Assembly: GCA_054600435.1 (NCBI GenBank)
Contig: BAAIJX010000035.1
Coordinates: 1-64,000 of the forward strand
Reading direction: 5' to 3'
From: Neophaeotheca triangularis
Taxonomy: Eukaryota
DNA length: 64,000 nucleotides
Positions 57,964 through 64,000 of the stretch are shown in pieces (position 1 is the first letter of the stretch; each line of letters begins with the position of its first letter). Position numbers and translations under genes: made by a program. Below the pieces are notes generated by a model, which was given only the letters and a program-made list of their open reading frames with translations, had not been told where the DNA came from and did no database searches.

Positions 57964-60954
57964 ATGGGTCCGAGAGTCGCACGCGCTTCGACGAGCGCCG
58001 CTGCGCCCAAAACGGCCAAGAACAAGAACCGCAAACGCAATCTTGATGCTTACGCCATCGCCTCGCATTCTGCGCCTGAAAAGCTACGAATGCGCCAACA
58101 CCGTCTGGGTGAAACGATCGATGACAACCCCCGCCAGAAACGTCGACGTCTACAGGATGATGACGAAGATAGTGAGGGAGAAGAGCACCTGGACAGTGCA
58201 AGGAGACGGCAGGAGAGAAACGTAACGAAGCGTACCGGCACTGGAGTGAACGGAGGACTGGGCGGTGCCAATGAGGACGCCGAAGAAGGCAGCGACAGCT
58301 CTGGAAATGAGTGGACGATGGGTGGCCTAGCCGAGGATGACGACGATAGCGAACTGGACTCGGATGAGGCTTTTGGGAGTAGCGATGAAGAGAGGTTTGA
58401 AGGTTTTACTTTCCGCGGCTCCAGCAGCAACAAAGGCAAGAAGAAGACGAAAAAGTCTGGAAAGTCAAAGGGTGGTGACATTGATCTGGACGAAGGCGAG
58501 AGCGAGCAAGAGGAGGAAGACGATGACGACGAGAGTCTTGGCGAAGATGCTGTCGATTTGGCTACAATGCTGGACGACGATGTGGATGATGAACAGCTAG
58601 GGGGAAAGGACAAGACCACGCAGGATCTTGGTGAAGAAAGTGCTGAAGAATCTGGCTCGGAGGAAGACGATGAAGGTAGCGATGATGAGTCCGACGATGC
58701 TCTGTCCGATGAAAACGACGATCATGTTGACGAGGAGGGACTTTCCCGCCTTCGCGACTTTGTCGACACTCTCAACGACGAGGTTGGGGATGGCAAGGAT
58801 AATAAGAAGCGCTCCGAGGACAAAGTCCATGCCAACCAGACCCTCAGCCTGGATGATCTCTTGGGTAACAGCAACGACCCATCAGTTCAAAAATCTATCA
58901 AGTCGATCCAAAAGCCGACTCGCAAAGCCAAGGGCGTCGAAACTTTGGCTCCTGCGCTACCTAAGCGCCAACAGGATCGCATCGATCGGGAGGTAGCTTC
59001 AAAGAAAGCAAAGGAGCAGCTCGATCGTTGGCGCGATACAGTCATCCAGAACCGCCGAGCCGACTTTTTGCAGTTTCCACTTGCAGACCCTAATGCCAAG
59101 GAACCTGTAGGCAAGGACAAATTCACCACAACGTCTTTGCAGGACAAACCCAGGACCGAGTTGGAAGAGAGCATTCAAAAGATTATGGAAGAGAGTGGCA
59201 TGGCTTCCAAACCGGGCCAGAAGCCTGCCGATGAAGAAGGCGATCTGCTGAAGAGCGAAGAACTGGCGACCAACAAGCTACCCATCGAGGAGGTCATGAA
59301 GCGTCGCAGTCAACTGCGGAAGGCACGAGAGCTATTGTTCCAGGAGGAGAAAAAGGCTAAGCGGATCTCGAAGATCAAGTCCAAGAGTTATCGTCGCGTG
59401 CACCGCAAGCAGCGTGAGCGGGAGGCTGAGAAGAACAGGGAGCTCATGGGCTCAGATATGGACGAGGACGAGAAGGAGCGCGCTGATCGTATGAGAGCAG
59501 AGGAACGAATGGGTGCCAAACATCGCAACTCGAAGTGGTCTCGAAGTGTCAAGGCCACCAATCGCGCCGCTTGGGATGACGACGCGAGGGAGGGTGTCCA
59601 CGACATGGCTAGGAGAAACGAAGATCTGAGGCGGCGAATTGCCGGGAAAGAAGTCAGCGATGACGACCATTCGGGGGTTTCCTCTGATGATGACGAGTCC
59701 GCCGATGGTGAAGACCAAGGCGATGCCAAAACGCTGAAGCAATTACAGAATGTGAAAGGAAGCGATGTTGCGCCGGAGAAAGGCCTAGGTGCGATGAAGT
59801 TTATGCGTGCTGCCGACGAGCGTAGGCGCGCGCAGAACGACGAGGATGCGGAGAGGCTTCGTAAAGAGTTGGTTGGCGAAGACAGCGACGACAAGGAACA
59901 AGATGAGAGTCTAGGCCGAGCGATCTTTGGGCCCAAGTCGAAGGGTGCCGGTGCAGCCCTGAAGCCGAAACGACCTGAGATGGAGGAAGCAGTACTTTCC
60001 GAGGACGAGGAGTCTGGGGAACTTGCGCCAGCACCTACCACAACGGACAATCAGGCGAGAAAACAGCAGCAGCCCAAGAGCACCATGATGAAGGGCGACG
60101 GCAGCGGTCCTTTATCCAGAGCTGCTGTGCCTGATAGGCGTGACGTTTCGCAAACGCAATCTTCGAGACAGCAACAGGACGATGGAGATGCGGTCAGCAG
60201 CTGGCTCGCTCCAAAGTCAAAGAAGGCGAAGAAAGCGACCTCGCGGGACGCCGAATCCGAAGGGGGCCTCCTAACCACCAAAGACGTCTCGAAGCCCGTG
60301 AGCAAGGAACCGAAACCCGACAAAACCGCCAAATCTAACGCCAAACGAGAAACCGCCTCCACGGCGCCCAACACAGACGGCTGGCAAACTGTTCCCTACA
60401 GCAACGCAGAAGAAGGCGAGGCTTCCGACGCCGACTCTGAAGCAGCCGCTCAACCCCTCGTCTCAGGCAAAGCCGGCAACAACAAGAAATCCATGCACAA
60501 TCGTGTCTTCGCCTCAGACGACGTGCAATCGGCTTTCGCGGCGGAAAAAGCCGACCTCGCCGCCTCCGAGGACGAAAAAGAAACCTCCAACCACCTTCCC
60601 GGCTGGGGCAGCTGGGCCGGCACCGGGCTGAGCAAACGCACCGCCAAGCACAACAAGAAGATCGCGCACAACCCGCTCCACAAGACCAAAGTCGCGGGTA
60701 CGAAACAGGAGCACCGTCGGGATAAAGGAAGGGAGGATGTGATTATTAGCGAGAAGCAGGACCGCAAGGGGAAGAAGTACATGGCGCCTGTGCTGCCGCA
60801 TGGGTTTGAGAAGGCCGACGAGTATGAGCGCAGTTTGAGGGTGCCGGTTGGGCCCGAGTGGACCACCAAGGAGACTTTCCAGAAGGGCACCAAGCCTAGG
60901 GTTGTGGTTAAGCCCGGTGCTGTCGTTGAGGCTATGGAAAGGCCTTTGGTGTAG
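57964..60954 (+). CDS. UTP14: U3 snoRNA-associated SSU processome protein Utp14
   Basis: KAKRISKIKSKSYRRVHRK, RAEERMGAKH, LPGWGSWAG, YERSLRVPVGPEW. Confidence 0.95.
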   Translation: MGPRVARASTSAAAPKTAKNKNRKRNLDAYAIASHSAPEKLRMRQHRLGETIDDNPRQKRRRLQDDDEDSEGEEHLDSARRRQERNVTKRTGTGVNGGLGGANEDAEEGSDSSGNEWTMGGLAEDDDDSELDSDEAFGSSDEERFEGFTFRGSSSNKGKKKTKKSGKSKGGDIDLDEGESEQEEEDDDDESLGEDAVDLATMLDDDVDDEQLGGKDKTTQDLGEESAEESGSEEDDEGSDDESDDALSDENDDHVDEEGLSRLRDFVDTLNDEVGDGKDNKKRSEDKVHANQTLSLDDLLGNSNDPSVQKSIKSIQKPTRKAKGVETLAPALPKRQQDRIDREVASKKAKEQLDRWRDTVIQNRRADFLQFPLADPNAKEPVGKDKFTTTSLQDKPRTELEESIQKIMEESGMASKPGQKPADEEGDLLKSEELATNKLPIEEVMKRRSQLRKARELLFQEEKKAKRISKIKSKSYRRVHRKQREREAEKNRELMGSDMDEDEKERADRMRAEERMGAKHRNSKWSRSVKATNRAAWDDDAREGVHDMARRNEDLRRRIAGKEVSDDDHSGVSSDDDESADGEDQGDAKTLKQLQNVKGSDVAPEKGLGAMKFMRAADERRRAQNDEDAERLRKELVGEDSDDKEQDESLGRAIFGPKSKGAGAALKPKRPEMEEAVLSEDEESGELAPAPTTTDNQARKQQQPKSTMMKGDGSGPLSRAAVPDRRDVSQTQSSRQQQDDGDAVSSWLAPKSKKAKKATSRDAESEGGLLTTKDVSKPVSKEPKPDKTAKSNAKRETASTAPNTDGWQTVPYSNAEEGEASDADSEAAAQPLVSGKAGNNKKSMHNRVFASDDVQSAFAAEKADLAASEDEKETSNHLPGWGSWAGTGLSKRTAKHNKKIAHNPLHKTKVAGTKQEHRRDKGREDVIISEKQDRKGKKYMAPVLPHGFEKADEYERSLRVPVGPEWTTKETFQKGTKPRVVVKPGAVVEAMERPLV

Positions 60955-61299: not shown

Positions 61300-62665
61300 T
61301 CAGCGCAGGTCAAGGTTGTCGAAGCCGCTCGTGACCTGTGAAAGGTGTCAGCACCGATTCTACGCACGGAACGTGGCCACTGAGGTCGCCCACATCATCG
61401 GCCTCGGTTGCCCAGACGGTGCCTCCGTCTTCGATACCGAGCTAATGCGGACAAGCGGTTTAGCCGGCCATCCCTCGGGTCGCTTGAGCTTCTGGGAAAC
61501 CCACCACTTCGATAGTGTCGCTGCGATCCACCGCCAGGCCATCGAAGCTGTAAACGCAGCCTTTGGCGCCCTTGTCGCGCTCCTCGTAGGCCTTTGCGAC
61601 CTTTTCGAACTGCGACGACGGCTTCACCTTGAAGTGGACACTGGCTCTGGCCTTGTGTGCGACTTCGACATTGATGCCGGGGCCCTGCTCGCGCGGTAGC
61701 TCGGGACGCTGGACCACTGCTTGGATGACGTCTCCGTCCACGAGCCCAATCTAGTCCTTGGTCAGATTCGCTCAAAGACCGACGGAAGGAGTCTTGGGTG
61801 GATGAAGAGGGATGCATACTTACGCCGGAAGCACTGTCGGTTTCAAGAAGCAAGTTGCCGTCATGAAAGAAATCCACGCTGGAGTAGCCAGTGCGCCCGC
61901 GATAATGCGTGAAGAGCCTGGCCAACGAGCCGTTCTCTCTAATTTTGTAGTAGACTTCTCCGGGGCCCCATCTGACACTGATAGTGAGGGAATTGGCAGT
62001 GGCAGAGGAAGCGTTGTTGTCGATTCCGGAGTCGTTTGCGAATTGGATCGCGACCTGAACATCTTGGGGGTCGACGTTATCGCTAGCGCTGTTGGAAGCC
62101 CGGGCGTGATCGTCGATGTCGTGAGTGTTGGCGAGCGTGCGACCACCAATTTGCTCGATGTACGCCTCAATAATGTCCCCGTCCTCCATCTCGAGCTGTG
62201 GGGGTGGATCAGCGGTCGCCTTGGGAGAGGAGGGGGGGGGGGGGAAACTCGTCAAGGCGCAGCAGCGTGAGTCGGTTCACTTACATCAGCGGGCGTCTGG
62301 TCGGGCCCAACCCTGTTGCCATCGACCAAGTAGCGCATGCCAGTCTGACCTGTGCGAGCGGAGTGCGCATCCATGACTTTGCCGAGCTTCGTGGTAGATT
62401 TGATTTTGAACGTCAACTCATTGCCTTCTTGCGTCTTGACCACGACGGACATGGGCTGAGGCACTGAAGGGTCACCACCACCGCCGGCCGCAGCAGCAGC
62501 GGCCTGGTCGGCGCCGTTGTTGGTATTGTCAGGAGTCTCCATGTTGCCGTTTGGGATGTTGGAAGTGGAGTAAGATGGGTTGTTCTCTGGGGACTCCTGT
62601 TCTGCGCCTTCGTCCTGGACGGTTGGGGTACGGTAGCCAGAAGGTGCTTGCTGGTGGTCTGTCAT
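61300..62665 (-). CDS. Protein with three tandem SUMO-like domains and an internal EQIGG motif (introns 62196-62284, 61751-61823, 61442-61504, possibly ~61336-61393)
   Basis: Domain 1: MSVVVKTQEGNELTFKIKSTTKLGKVMDA..MRYLVDGNRVGPDQTPAD|LEMEDGDIIEAYIEQIGG. Domain 2: EVYYKIRE..FFHDGNLLLETDSASG|IGLVDGDVIQA. Domain 3: VHFKVKPSSQFEKV..YSFDGLAVDRSDTIEV|LGIEDGGTVWA. Confidence 0.8.
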
Positions 62666-63150
62666 GCTTTTTAGGTGGAGGTGAGGAGGTGGATAGGTGT
62701 CTGTTGGTGGTAGGTGTTGTTTTGGAGGGTTGTGAGACAAAGGACGGGCCGTGGGCCGAGGTGAGACTTACGAGTGAAGTCGTTGGTGGAAACACCTAGC
62801 AGCTTCCGAGGAAAGTGAGATGGAGGTTGGAGTGGAAGAGTTGTGTGAAAGGTGCCAGTCAGGTAGGTGAGACGAGGGAAGTGAGGTGAGGTGAGGTCAA
62901 GACAAAGCCTAAAGAAGAATTAAAGGCTGAGGAATTAAAAGAAGGGGCAATCGTGCAAGCCTGTCACGTGCGCCTCCTTGGGTATCTGGGTACATGTATC
63001 TTACCTACTACTCCTACATTATGCATTTAATCGTTAAACCATCAACACCTTCATCCGATGCGGTCCGATTACTCCTCGCAACAAAGAAGCAACTCCCATC
63101 AACATCCGCCTTTTGTCCTAAAATACGCCGCTTCCCTGGCTCAAGCATGA

Positions 63151-64000
63151 TCATCTCCCGGTAACGGCAGCAATGGCAAGGTCGTCTATGCGCTGCTTGT
63201 ACAGCGCCATGTAATGCATTGTAGGATCCCCGAAAATAACTCCTCGCAACTGATCGTCAGTAGTCATTACAGCCTCGACCCCCTTTGACCTATGTCTTCC
63301 GTGCTGCTCACGCAAGACCACGACATGACCAGCGTTGGAAAGTGTTGATGGCGGCACTGCCCACTTTGGAGGCCGCAATTTCTTCTTCGGAGCTTCAGGC
63401 TTGTGTTTGTCCTTCTTCAATAGCAGTGTCAGAGCGCTACCGCCTTTCTTGGGCTTCTGCGCTGGTTGCTCCGAGACGTACACGGTTTCGGGAGCGGGTG
63501 TTACGATGAGTTTGGCGAGGGAGCGCATGTACGGCAGATCGGCACGCACAACAAGATCACCCTCATTAGCGAAGGAGAGGAAGACGCTCTTTTGCAGACT
63601 CCTGCGGGCTGGCTTCTGGAGTGGCATCAACGAGACTGGAGGTGCACCGAATGTGACACAGTGGACTCTCTTGAATACCCCGGTGAGAGGAGTGAGCTCG
63701 GAGGCGCAATGAGGCGAGGTCGAGAGCATGTGCATGTACAGCAAGGACGCGACGGCTCCGCCAGCAGAGTGTCCCGTGATTAGAAGCGAACTGCTTGATC
63801 TCGAAGGATCTTGCTCCAGCAACTCCCTCAACCGCCTTGCGACCGGCTTGACCATTGATTGAGCGACACCGAGGAATCCGGAATGGCAGGCATTGCCGTC
63901 GTCATCCAAGAAACCGATGGGAGCAGTAGGCGAAAGAGTAAAGTTTACCGCCCAGTCGATGAGATTCTTCTGGGAACCCCGAATAGCGAACACTATCAGG
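63151..64000 (-). CDS. Class 3 lipase family protein (5' part outside the window)
   Basis: AIRGS, CHSGF, ITGHSAGGAVA, CVTFGAPP, NEGDLV and a C-terminal His. Confidence 0.9.
   Translation of the reverse strand, partial: LIVFAIRGSQKNLIDWAVNFTLSPTAPIGFLDDDGNACHSGFLGVAQSMVKPVARRLRELLEQDPSRSSSSLLITGHSAGGAVASLLYMHMLSTSPHCASELTPLTGVFKRVHCVTFGAPPVSLMPLQKPARRSLQKSVFLSFANEGDLVVRADLPYMRSLAKLIVTPAPETVYVSEQPAQKPKKGGSALTLLLKKDKHKPEAPKKKLRPPKWAVPPSTLSNAGHVVVLREQHGRHRSKGVEAVMTTDDQLRGVIFGDPTMHYMALYKQRIDDLAIAAVTGR

What the first reader, a model, noticed from the sequence alone, without database searches (positions are those of the whole stretch)
61300..62665. Poly-SUMO-like gene: three tandem SUMO-like domains with an internal di-glycine site
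Seen: three beta-grasp-like repeats (F/Y-K-I/V...DG...L-x-(M/L/I)-x-DG) each broken by a phase-0 intron at the equivalent position (TPAD|LEMEDGD, SASG|IGLVDGD, TIEV|LGIEDGG), which indicates intragenic tandem duplication. Only domain 1 ends in EQIGG (GG at 62142-62147). Established: SUMO/Smt3 is normally a single domain matured by Ulp proteases after QIGG/QTGG, while Rad60/Esc2 carry two non-conjugated C-terminal SUMO-like domains. Inference: a divergent SUMO paralog made as a polyprotein. Cleavage would release one conjugatable modifier and a two-domain non-conjugatable fragment that could act as a SIM or Ubc9 decoy.
Basis: partly seen in the sequence, partly recalled or inferred. Interest (0 to 1): 0.8.

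Follow-up and report, generated by a model that had tools for sequence, protein, structure and literature searches.

The report
Fungal gene with three SUMO domains
This is an intact fungal gene that strings one normal-looking SUMO protein tag and two worn-down SUMO copies into a single protein, a layout described in grasses but apparently not in fungi, which are usually said to have only one SUMO.

Summary
A minus-strand gene (62665 to 61310; 4 exons, 3 phase-0 introns) encodes 376 aa with three SUMO-family domains. Each is split by an intron at the same alignment column, and only domain 1 ends Q-I-G-G (GG codons 62147-62142).

Against a SUMO profile, D1 scores 103.5 bits, D2 33.5 and D3 38.9. 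D1 keeps 23 of 25 conserved SUMO columns, including the Arg64/Arg71/Gln95/Gly97/Gly98 equivalents that Ulp1 and E1 contact. D2 and D3 keep 10 and 12, and have lost both arginines and the GG. D2-D3 contain no Met, so they can only be made fused to D1.

D1 lies outside the canonical Pezizomycotina SMT3 clade (40-42% identity). It resembles uncharacterised dothideomycete proteins with one to three such domains; 5 of 6 keep QIGG. Multi-SUMO-domain proteins are common among the hits (63 of 156).

It is not Rad60/Esc2-like: the N-terminus is short and acidic, D1 has a GG, and all shown PDB hits are SUMO. Cleavage, conjugation and any decoy role are untested. No RNA data exist and the genome could not be searched for a canonical SMT3. 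A sister strain has lost the intron-2 acceptor, so D2 may be weakly constrained. I rate it a new variant of a known kind, of moderate interest.

The parts
62285..62665 (-). Exon 1 (127 codons). It encodes Met1, an acidic lysine-free disordered N-terminus (residues 1-66) and strands 1-4 plus the helix of SUMO domain 1.
   Evidence: Translation. Pfam PF11976 3.5e-7 on residues 72-127. No Lys before residue 77, and K0/R1/D5/E5 in residues 1-66. It is the first in-frame ATG after a stop.
62196..62284 (-). Intron 1 (89 nt, GTAAGT...CTGAT...CAG, phase 0).
   Evidence: Sequence. In run X2 it carries 10 substitutions in 89 nt and all the frame-breaking indels seen in the gene.
61824..62195 (-). Exon 2 (124 codons): last strand of domain 1, Q-I-G-G, a roughly 40-aa linker, then strands 1-4 plus the helix of domain 2.
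   Evidence: Translation. The profile alignment runs across both junctions without gaps. AF2 of this exon gives residues 69-124 at pLDDT 88-95 with a strand-strand-helix-strand-strand pattern. That part superposes on Smt3/SUMO at 0.8-1.2 A over 55-58 columns.
62142..62147 (-). GGT GGT: the di-glycine (Gly144-Gly145) at the end of domain 1, followed by Arg146.
61751..61823 (-). Intron 2 (73 nt, GTAAGT...CTGAC...TAG, phase 0).
   Evidence: The acceptor G at 61751 is changed in run X2.
61505..61750 (-). Exon 3 (82 codons): last strand of domain 2, a short linker, then strands 1-4 plus the helix of domain 3.
   Evidence: Translation. Pfam PF11976 7.4e-6. PDB di-SUMO2 2.8e-9.
61442..61504 (-). Intron 3 (63 nt, GTGGGT...TAG, phase 0; contains an in-frame TAA).
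61310..61441 (-). Exon 4 (43 codons plus stop): last strand of domain 3 and a roughly 30-aa tail with no di-glycine at the domain end.
   Evidence: Translation; profile alignment.

Best explanation
This is a real, intact gene of a filamentous ascomycete, most like dothideomycetes. It encodes a lineage-specific SUMO paralogue that grew by tandem duplication of the ancestral SUMO exon-intron-exon unit.

Domain 1 (residues about 65-146) looks like a working SUMO. It has the full fold, the residues that contact E1 and Ulp1 in yeast Smt3, a SIM groove, and Q-I-G-G. Domains 2 (about 186-265) and 3 (about 273-344) are fast-evolving SUMO-like domains. They have lost the di-glycine and both conserved arginines, so they cannot be processed or conjugated themselves.

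Most likely mechanism (inferred, not shown): a Ulp1-type protease cuts after Gly145. That would release a 145-residue modifier whose long N-terminal arm has no lysine, and so lacks the usual N-terminal chain-building sites. It would also release a 231-residue fragment with two SUMO-like domains. That fragment keeps SIM-groove-type residues and could bind SIM proteins, but it is probably only weakly constrained.

Shown here: gene structure, domain identity, residue conservation, paralogy to the canonical clade, and the existence of relatives. Inferred: cleavage, conjugation, and any role for the D2-D3 fragment.
For: Gene model. Splicing gives three canonical phase-0 introns and restores an ungapped match to a SUMO profile across every junction. 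The GC1/GC2/GC3 pattern is coding-like in all three domains and similar to the neighbouring Utp14 gene. In run X2 the only exonic indel is 3 nt, while the 1-, 1-, 1- and 10-nt deletions and a 1-nt insertion all lie in intron 1. Substitution density in X2 is 11.2% in intron 1 against 0.5% in exon 1.

Domain identity. Profile scores are 103.5, 33.5 and 38.9 bits. PDB sequence hits for all three exon pieces are SUMO/Smt3. The AF2 model of exon 2 shows a confident partial beta-grasp that superposes on Smt3.

D1 looks competent. It keeps 23 of 25 columns that are at least 70% conserved in 40 GG-bearing reference domains. These include the equivalents of Smt3 R64, D68, G69, R71, Q95, G97 and G98. 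Table 1 of PMC5319795 (read as passages) lists these as E1 and/or Ulp1 contacts; R64E, D68R, R71A and G97A mutants accumulate precursor.

D2 and D3. They keep 10 and 12 of the 25 columns. R64 becomes D or V, R71 becomes L or A, and there is no Q-x-G-G. The beta-2 motif is still YKIR in D2 and FKVK in D3, against FKIK in D1.

Obligatory fusion. There is no stop between the GG and D2, and no Met after residue 130.

Paralogy. D1 is 40-42% identical to 5 canonical Pezizomycotina SMT3 fragments, which are 68-85% identical to each other and form a starred clade (98/91) that excludes D1. D1 is 42-51% identical to the first domains of dothideomycete proteins.

Relatives. Named relatives come from Aureobasidium (372 aa, QIGG plus two degenerate domains), Friedmanniomyces (3 domains), Dothideomycetes sp. 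NU459 (2), Recurvomyces (1), Dothistroma (partial) and Dothideales sp. JES 119 (1). The AF2 model of the Aureobasidium protein shows three beta-grasp units. It matches linear tri- and tetra-ubiquitin over about 290 columns at E 2.7e-17, and SUMO1 at TM 0.93-0.96.

Cleavage plausibility. It is established knowledge, recalled rather than tested here, that Ulp1 cleaves SUMO fusions after GG whatever follows except proline. Here the next residue is Arg.
Against: - No transcript evidence exists, so splicing rests on homology alone.
- The genome could not be searched, so a canonical SMT3 elsewhere is assumed, not shown.
- D1's placement is weak. It groups at 84/84 with three rows, only one of them named, and falls outside the 84/89 dothideomycete group.
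- Its nearest named relative, P0065, has Q-L-G-V-G and no GG.
- D1 differs from the consensus at F65 (Tyr) and has a 2-residue deletion after the helix. Recognition by E1 or Ulp is therefore not guaranteed.
- Both haplotypes of run X2 (same organism label) carry 61750 T>A plus 61751 C>T. This removes the intron-2 acceptor AG, and the nearest upstream AG would give an immediate stop (and my reading).
- Substitutions listed that fall in exons are 10 synonymous and 14 non-synonymous. Most non-synonymous ones are in the linker, D2 and D3. Five further differences were not shown by the tool.
- D2 and D3 sit on branches of about 3.4 changes per column and could not be placed.
- D2-D3 are not specifically similar to D2-D3 of the Aureobasidium protein, so the three-domain layout may have arisen more than once.
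Confidence: 0.6

Rival explanations
1. The protein stays uncut and acts as a genetically encoded linear poly-SUMO mimic. It would work like Rad60/Esc2/NIP45, engaging multi-SIM proteins (for example SUMO-targeted ubiquitin ligases) or Ubc9 non-covalently through three tandem SUMO-type surfaces.
For: All three domains keep the beta-2 basic motif of the SIM groove (FKIK, YKIR, FKVK) and the D68/G69 equivalents. The model of the Aureobasidium relative resembles linear poly-ubiquitin chains. RENi proteins set the precedent for non-conjugated SUMO-like fusions (PMC549199 passages).
Against: D1 keeps Q-I-G-G and the Ulp1-contact residues. 5 of 6 named relatives keep QIGG in the first domain, including a single-domain relative with only a 3-residue tail. 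That conservation is hard to explain unless the site is used. The residue after the GG is Arg, not Pro.
Confidence: 0.2
2. Only domain 1 matters. D2-D3 are a decaying remnant of duplication that is removed at maturation like an oversized propeptide, or not made at all in some strains, and has no function of its own.
For: D2 and D3 keep 10 and 12 of 25 conserved columns and have branch lengths of about 3.4. In run X2, exon 2 carries 4.3% substitutions against 0.5% in exon 1, and the intron-2 acceptor is lost. Relatives have 1, 2 or 3 domains.
Against: The reading frame is open through both domains, with a coding-like GC3 of 0.66-0.76. Both still score E 1e-10 to 1e-12 against a SUMO profile over nearly the full domain length. 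The ratio of 14 non-synonymous to 10 synonymous changes is below the roughly 3:1 expected without constraint (small numbers). An air-metagenome contig keeps the acceptor.
Confidence: 0.3
3. This is the fungus's only SUMO gene: the canonical SMT3 orthologue, unusually diverged and extended.
For: No other SUMO-like sequence lies in the 64-kb window and the rest of the genome could not be examined. A review states that fungi have a single SUMO (PMC11986368 passage).
Against: D1 is only 40-42% identical to canonical Pezizomycotina fragments, which are 68-85% identical among themselves and form a starred clade without it. D1 shares an N-terminal Y-x-x-P-T-V-x-D-E-like motif with 5 other dothideomycete-type proteins and with 0 of 5 canonical fragments. 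That motif was defined post hoc.
Confidence: 0.1
4. It is the Rad60/Esc2 (RENi) orthologue of this fungus.
For: It carries multiple SUMO-like domains, the last two without GG. Pfam's matching model is named Rad60-SLD.
Against: The RENi definition (PMC549199 passages) requires a long polar, positively charged N-terminal region, two C-terminal SUMO-like domains of which the first is barely detectable, and no GG. Here the N-terminus is 66 aa, acidic and has no Lys. There are three domains, and the first is the best conserved and ends in GG. None of the PDB hits shown for any exon is a Rad60, Esc2 or NIP45 chain: 60 hits were shown per search, out of 150, 64 and 110 hits.
Confidence: 0.04

Closest known systems
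SUMO / Smt3 precursors (single-domain conjugatable modifiers matured by Ulp1/SENP)
   Same: Domain 1 has the SUMO-family fold, the Q-I-G-G end, the E1/Ulp1 contact residues and the SIM-groove residues. It has the same intron position as canonical Pezizomycotina SMT3 fragments.
   Different: The 'tail' after the GG is 231 residues with two further SUMO-like domains, instead of a few residues. D1 lies outside the canonical clade. The 76 N-terminal residues contain no lysine.
Grass SUMO-like concatemers (maize DiSUMO-like DSUL and the GSUL2 locus; PMC6680281, passages read)
   Same: Both are head-to-tail fusions of SUMO-like domains formed by recent tandem duplication or fusion. Domain number varies between related species, and some units have lost internal or C-terminal di-glycines.
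   Different: The origin is independent (fungus versus plants). Here three domains share an inherited intron position. Only the first domain keeps the GG, so at most one conjugatable unit can be released.
RENi family (Rad60, Esc2, NIP45/NFATC2IP)
   Same: Both contain non-conjugatable SUMO-like domains in tandem that could mimic SUMO non-covalently (PMC549199 passages).
   Different: RENi proteins have a long basic low-complexity N-terminus, exactly two domains in non-plant members, a poorly conserved first domain and no GG. None of these holds here.
Polyubiquitin and linear di-UBL proteins (ISG15, FAT10)
   Same: Both have a linear beta-grasp repeat architecture. The model of the Aureobasidium relative matches linear tri- and tetra-ubiquitin.
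   Different: The repeats here are only 17-29% identical to each other and only one ends in GG. This is not a multi-copy precursor of identical modifiers.

Membership tests
SUMO/Smt3 conjugatable modifier | SUMO-family beta-grasp domain | tested here: met
   D1 scores 103.5 bits (E 4.7e-32) against a profile of 22 single-domain SUMO-like proteins. Pfam PF11976 scores above its cut-off on the exon-1 piece. PDB Smt3/SUMO2 hits.
SUMO/Smt3 conjugatable modifier | C-terminal Gly-Gly at the end of the fold | tested here: met
   Q-I-G-G at residues 142-145, with codons at 62147-62142. D2 and D3 have none at that position.
SUMO/Smt3 conjugatable modifier | Short C-terminal propeptide after the GG | tested here: not met
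   231 residues with two more domains follow the GG.
SUMO/Smt3 conjugatable modifier | Conserved E1/Ulp1 contact residues (Smt3 R64, D68, G69, R71, Q95, G97, G98; PMC5319795 Table 1) | tested here: met
   All are present in D1. R64, R71, Q95, G97 and G98 are absent in D2 and D3. The mapping from column to Smt3 number (column minus one) is my inference from the motif register.
SUMO/Smt3 conjugatable modifier | Processing by Ulp and conjugation through E1/Ubc9 | not testable with these tools
   This is biochemistry. No eukaryotic reference chains are available for complex prediction.
Canonical Pezizomycotina SMT3 orthologue | Falls in the clade of canonical SMT3 sequences with high identity | tested here: not met
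   The canonical fragments form a starred clade (98/91) without D1. D1 is 40-42% identical to them, against 68-85% within the clade. That these fragments are the canonical SMT3 rests on one source name ('small ubiquitin-related modifier') and on my recollection of the motif.
RENi (Rad60-Esc2-NIP45) | Long polar, positively charged low-complexity N-terminal region | tested here: not met
   The N-terminus is 66 residues with K0, R1, D5 and E5. Definition from PMC549199 passages.
RENi (Rad60-Esc2-NIP45) | Two C-terminal SUMO-like domains, the first highly divergent, neither with GG | tested here: not met
   There are three domains. The first is the best conserved and ends in GG.
RENi (Rad60-Esc2-NIP45) | Sequence clustering with Rad60/Esc2/NIP45 SLDs | tested here: inconclusive
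   No RENi chain appears among the 60 PDB hits shown for each exon. No RENi sequence could be fetched for a tree.
SUMO-like concatemer (DSUL/GSUL2 type) | Head-to-tail fusion of SUMO-like UBL domains in one reading frame, with variable loss of di-glycines | tested here: met
   This is the same kind of architecture as described in PMC6680281. It is a resemblance of kind and does not imply shared ancestry.
Polyubiquitin-type polyprotein precursor | Every repeat ends in GG and the repeats are near-identical | tested here: not met
   Only D1 has a GG. The repeats are 17-29% identical to each other.

The most novel reading that the evidence does not exclude
Dothideomycete fungi run a second, lineage-specific SUMO system. 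This gene would be a self-contained precursor that Ulp cleavage splits into two products. One is a lysine-poor, chain-terminating SUMO paralogue that is conjugated to targets. The other is a free two-domain SUMO mimic that tunes SIM readers such as SUMO-targeted ubiquitin ligases, or Ubc9. The modifier and its own competitor would then be made in a fixed 1:1 ratio from one mRNA. This would contradict the textbook statement that fungi have a single SUMO.
Probability: 0.15. Interest if true: 0.75.

Novelty: new variant of a known kind. Interest (0 to 1): 0.5.

Why it matters
Reviews state that fungi have one SUMO (PMC11986368 passage). This gene and its dothideomycete relatives, all annotated only as hypothetical proteins, point to a fast-evolving second SUMO-like family in a large fungal class. 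That class includes plant pathogens and extremotolerant black yeasts. Domain number in the family changes by tandem duplication, much as at the grass DSUL locus.

If domain 1 is conjugated, sumoylation studies in these fungi have missed a modifier. If the two extra domains bind SIM proteins, the gene is a natural experiment in encoding a SUMO chain mimic.

The architecture makes cleavage and conjugation easy to test at the bench. The relaxed constraint on D2-D3 and the loss of a splice site in a sister strain temper these expectations.

Tried and rejected
- Own-genome search for a canonical SMT3: no genome is held.
- Word-indexed protein searches. Exon 2 against longer proteins gave nothing. 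Exon 1 against longer proteins gave two Logan multi-domain proteins. Exon 1 against near-length proteins gave nothing. No close full-length orthologue was obtained.
- Sequencing runs: no RNA holder is listed, so splicing and expression are untested.
- Run X6 (same organism label) holds next to none of the sampled words. X4 and X5 hold small shares and cover only short parts of the gene. I draw no conclusion from these.
- Metagenome scan with exon 2: three loci matched only the short EMEDGD-type motif. They are unrelated SUMO genes or noise.
- Earlier-findings look-ups returned nothing.
- The ESM Atlas returned only generic SUMO clusters at 0.86.
- A fourth intron in the tail (61367-61336, GTGCGT..CACAG) was rejected. 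At 32 nt it is too short for a fungal intron, and it would change only the last residues.
- The domain tree could not place D2 or D3. Both are long branches, and the tool warned about a long-branch join between D3 and another row. The order and age of the duplications therefore remain open.
- Foldseek on the exon-2 model gave only weak E-values (9e-3 or worse) because the domain is incomplete, although every row shown is SUMO/Smt3.
- The spliced window protein could not be folded, because joined exons are not accepted by the structure tool. I did not try. Instead I folded exon 2 alone and a named relative.
- The Rad60/Esc2 reading was considered and rejected on architecture.
- Literature searches for fungal multi-SUMO genes found no description. 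Search terms: poly-SUMO gene, SUMO repeats, tandem SUMO domains, polySUMO precursor, three/multiple SUMO-like domains, SUMO concatemer, tandem SUMO-like, poly-SUMO-like, SUMO polyprotein, and SUMO paralog with Dothideomycetes/Pezizomycotina. Subscription journals and supplements were not covered.
Full report
**What is there**

The finding lies on the minus strand. Reading from the ATG at 62665, four exons give a 376-codon frame: 62665-62285, 62195-61824, 61750-61505 and 61441-61310. The three introns are 89, 73 and 63 nt. They have GTAAGT, GTAAGT and GTGGGT donors, CAG, TAG and TAG acceptors, and branch-like CTGAT/CTGAC/CTAAA motifs. All are phase 0. The GG of EQIGG is encoded at 62147-62142 and corresponds to Gly144-Gly145.

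**Evidence for the gene model without RNA**

No RNA run holds this DNA, so splicing rests on four indirect lines.

- After splicing, a profile built from 22 single-domain SUMO-like proteins aligns across each junction without a gap.
- In a match-column alignment, the three junctions fall in the same column.
- 16 of the 17 incomplete relative fragments in that alignment stop matching at that column with a Val (GTN) codon. This includes 5 of 5 fragments of the canonical Pezizomycotina SMT3 type. I read these as genomic ORF calls that run into a conserved intron, which is an inference. The intron would then be ancestral to the SUMO gene and copied with each duplicated unit.
- In a second strain or strain mixture (run X2), every frame-breaking indel lies in intron 1 and the only exonic indel is 3 nt. 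Substitutions reach 11.2% in intron 1 against 0.5% in exon 1.

The GC1/GC2/GC3 pattern is coding-like in all three domains and resembles the neighbouring Utp14 gene.

**What the domains are**

- Pfam PF11976 (Rad60-SLD, the SUMO-family model) hits each exon piece at 3.5e-7, 0.0046 (below the cut-off) and 7.4e-6.
- On the spliced protein, my SUMO profile gives D1 103.5 bits (residues 65-146), D2 33.5 bits (186-265) and D3 38.9 bits (273-344).
- The domains match each other well beyond shuffles (z = 13.4, 9.5, 5.5) but are only 17-29% identical.
- PDB sequence searches with each exon return SUMO/Smt3 chains in all rows shown. No Rad60, Esc2 or NIP45 chain appears.
- I could not fold the spliced protein, because joined exons are not accepted. 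AF2 on exon 2 alone models the D2 part (residues 69-124 of the exon) at pLDDT 88-95 as strand-strand-helix-strand-strand. It superposes on Smt3/SUMO at 0.8-1.2 A over 55-58 columns, with weak E-values because the last strand is missing.

**Which domains look functional**

In 40 reference domains that end in GG, 25 columns are at least 70% conserved. D1 keeps 23 of them, D2 keeps 10 and D3 keeps 12. I mapped columns to yeast Smt3 by the R-F-L-x-D-G-x-R register, which is my inference.

- D1 keeps the equivalents of R64, D68, G69, R71, Q95, G97 and G98. Table 1 of PMC5319795 lists these as Ulp1 and/or E1 contacts. R64E, D68R, R71A and G97A mutants accumulate unprocessed precursor (passages read).
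- D2 has Asp and Leu, and D3 has Val and Ala, at the two arginine positions. Neither has Q-x-G-G.
- All three keep the basic beta-2 motif of the SIM groove: FKIK, YKIR and FKVK.

So D1 looks like a modifier. D2 and D3 look like non-conjugatable SUMO-like domains that could still bind SIMs.

Exon 2 is one open frame from D1's last strand through the GG and a roughly 40-residue linker into D2. There is no Met after residue 130, so D2-D3 can only be made fused to D1. The 76 N-terminal residues have no lysine and are acidic.

**Relatives**

A full scan of 1.84 billion representative proteins with exon 1 gave 472 hits at E ≤ 0.001. The top hits are proteins with several SUMO-like stretches. Of the 156 proteins I examined, counting the window's own and a few cluster members, 63 have two or more complete domains.

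Named relatives of the first domain are all dothideomycete 'hypothetical proteins':

| Source | Length / domains | End of first domain |
|---|---|---|
| Aureobasidium spp. | 372 aa; QIGG domain plus two degenerate domains | QIGG |
| Friedmanniomyces endolithicus | 340 aa; three domains | QIGG |
| Dothideomycetes sp. NU459 | two domains | QIGG |
| Recurvomyces mirabilis | 129 aa; one domain | QIGG plus 3 residues |
| Dothistroma septosporum | partial | QIGG |
| Dothideales sp. JES 119 | one domain | Q-L-G-V-G |

Five of six therefore keep QIGG in the first domain.

AF2 of the Aureobasidium protein gives three beta-grasp units, with pLDDT of about 97 for D1, 54-83 for D2 and 79-96 for D3. The model matches linear tri- and tetra-ubiquitin over about 290 columns at E 2.7e-17, and SUMO1 at TM 0.93-0.96 for a single domain.

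The window's D2-D3 are not specifically similar to that protein's D2-D3. In Friedmanniomyces the three domains cluster with each other at 93/91. Domain gain therefore looks repeated and lineage-specific.

**Paralogue or the only SUMO?**

Five fragments of the canonical type are 68-85% identical to each other and form a starred clade (98/91). D1 is 40-42% identical to them and lies outside the clade. One of the five is named 'small ubiquitin-related modifier' by its source. That they are the canonical Pezizomycotina SMT3 otherwise rests on my recollection.

D1 is 42-51% identical to the dothideomycete first domains, but it groups only weakly (84/84) with three rows, one of them named. An N-terminal Y-x-x-P-T-V-x-D-E-like motif is shared with 5 other dothideomycete-type proteins out of the 15 checked and with 0 of 5 canonical fragments. 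I defined that motif after seeing the sequences.

No other SUMO-like sequence lies in the window. The genome itself could not be searched, so a canonical SMT3 elsewhere is likely but not shown.

**Variation**

Run X2 carries 39 listed substitutions over the 1751 bases laid; five more were not shown by the tool. Of the listed exonic changes in X2 and X4 together, 10 are synonymous and 14 non-synonymous. In the D1 core there are two synonymous changes and one non-synonymous. Most non-synonymous changes are in the linker, D2 and D3.

X2 also has 61750 T>A together with 61751 C>T in a contig at depth 99. This removes the intron-2 acceptor AG. The nearest upstream AG would be followed by a stop. 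An in-frame CAG 42 nt downstream could in principle skip D2's last strand; that is my reading of the sequence and is untested. An air-metagenome contig keeps the acceptor. This argues that D2, and perhaps D3, are weakly constrained.

**Most likely mechanism and rivals**

I favour a SUMO paralogue precursor (confidence 0.6 for the whole statement). In this reading a Ulp1-type protease cuts after Gly145 and releases two products. One is a modifier with a lysine-free N-terminal arm. The other is a 231-residue two-domain fragment.

The cut is plausible for three reasons:
- D1 keeps the Ulp1 contacts.
- Relatives keep QIGG even when only three residues follow it.
- Ulp1 is known to cleave SUMO fusions whatever follows the GG, except proline (recalled, not tested here). 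The next residue here is Arg.

The rivals are:
- An uncut RENi-like poly-SUMO mimic (0.2).
- D2-D3 as a decaying, functionless appendage (0.3; this overlaps with the main reading).
- The sole, diverged SMT3 of this fungus (0.1).
- A Rad60/Esc2 orthologue (0.04). I reject this because the RENi definition (PMC549199 passages) is not met. That definition requires a long basic low-complexity N-terminus, two domains with a poorly conserved first one, and no GG.

**Comparison with what is known, and novelty**

The closest described analogue of kind is the grass DSUL/GSUL2 locus. There, SUMO-like domains are fused head to tail, vary in number between species, and sometimes lose internal or terminal di-glycines (PMC6680281 passages). 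[quoted passage not shown] Four full-text searches found no description of multi-domain SUMO genes in fungi; subscription journals and supplements were not covered.

I therefore file this as a new variant of a known kind, of moderate interest. It is real, intact and unusual for fungi. It is also one member of a wider, unannotated phenomenon, its mechanism is untested, and there are signs of relaxed constraint on the two extra domains.

Noticed in passing
Database proteins P0157/P0007 (Cadophora sp., 399/394 aa), P0011 (Helotiales sp., 416 aa), P0016 (Diplocarpon rosae, 284 aa), P0013, P0041; also P0005, P0006, P0158 (Logan, up to 889 aa): Leotiomycete proteins carry three or four well-conserved SUMO repeats, each ending in Q-x-G-G. 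These are true poly-SUMO precursors in the manner of polyubiquitin. In the domain tree the repeats group by position across species, so the architecture predates those species. Unnamed Logan proteins have up to nine complete SUMO-like domains, with GG on some. My literature searches found no description. This may be more interesting than the window's own gene.
   Followed up: partly
window 61750-61751: Run X2 (same organism label as the probable source run) has T>A and C>T at adjacent bases. Together they destroy the intron-2 acceptor AG and change Ile252 to Phe. An air-metagenome contig (X3) keeps the window's version.
   Followed up: partly
window 62701-62771 (minus strand): A candidate 71-nt intron (GTAAGT...CAACAG) lies in the 5' untranslated region, upstream of the ATG. 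There is no transcript evidence for it.
   Followed up: no
residues 11-19 of the encoded protein (window about 62609-62635, minus strand): A short acidic motif (Y-x-x-P-T-V-x-D-E-like) near the N-terminus is shared with the Aureobasidium, Friedmanniomyces and Recurvomyces proteins and two unnamed proteins. It is absent from 5 canonical SMT3 fragments. The pattern was defined post hoc. Its function is unknown.
   Followed up: partly
protein P0038 (87 aa, Logan contig): This is the closest database relative of exon 1 (57% identity over 68 residues). It starts at the equivalent of Met42 and loses similarity right after the helix. That suggests a frameshift, an extra intron or a pseudogene in that relative.
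   Followed up: no
window 57964-60951 (+) and 63154-63999 (-): The neighbours are a Utp14 homologue (Pfam 6.4e-178), convergent with this gene, and a class-3 lipase domain gene that runs off the window. Neither has an evident link to sumoylation.
   Followed up: yes
window 62473-62475: Runs X2 and X4 share a 3-nt in-frame deletion in the Ala/Gly run of the N-terminal arm.
   Followed up: no
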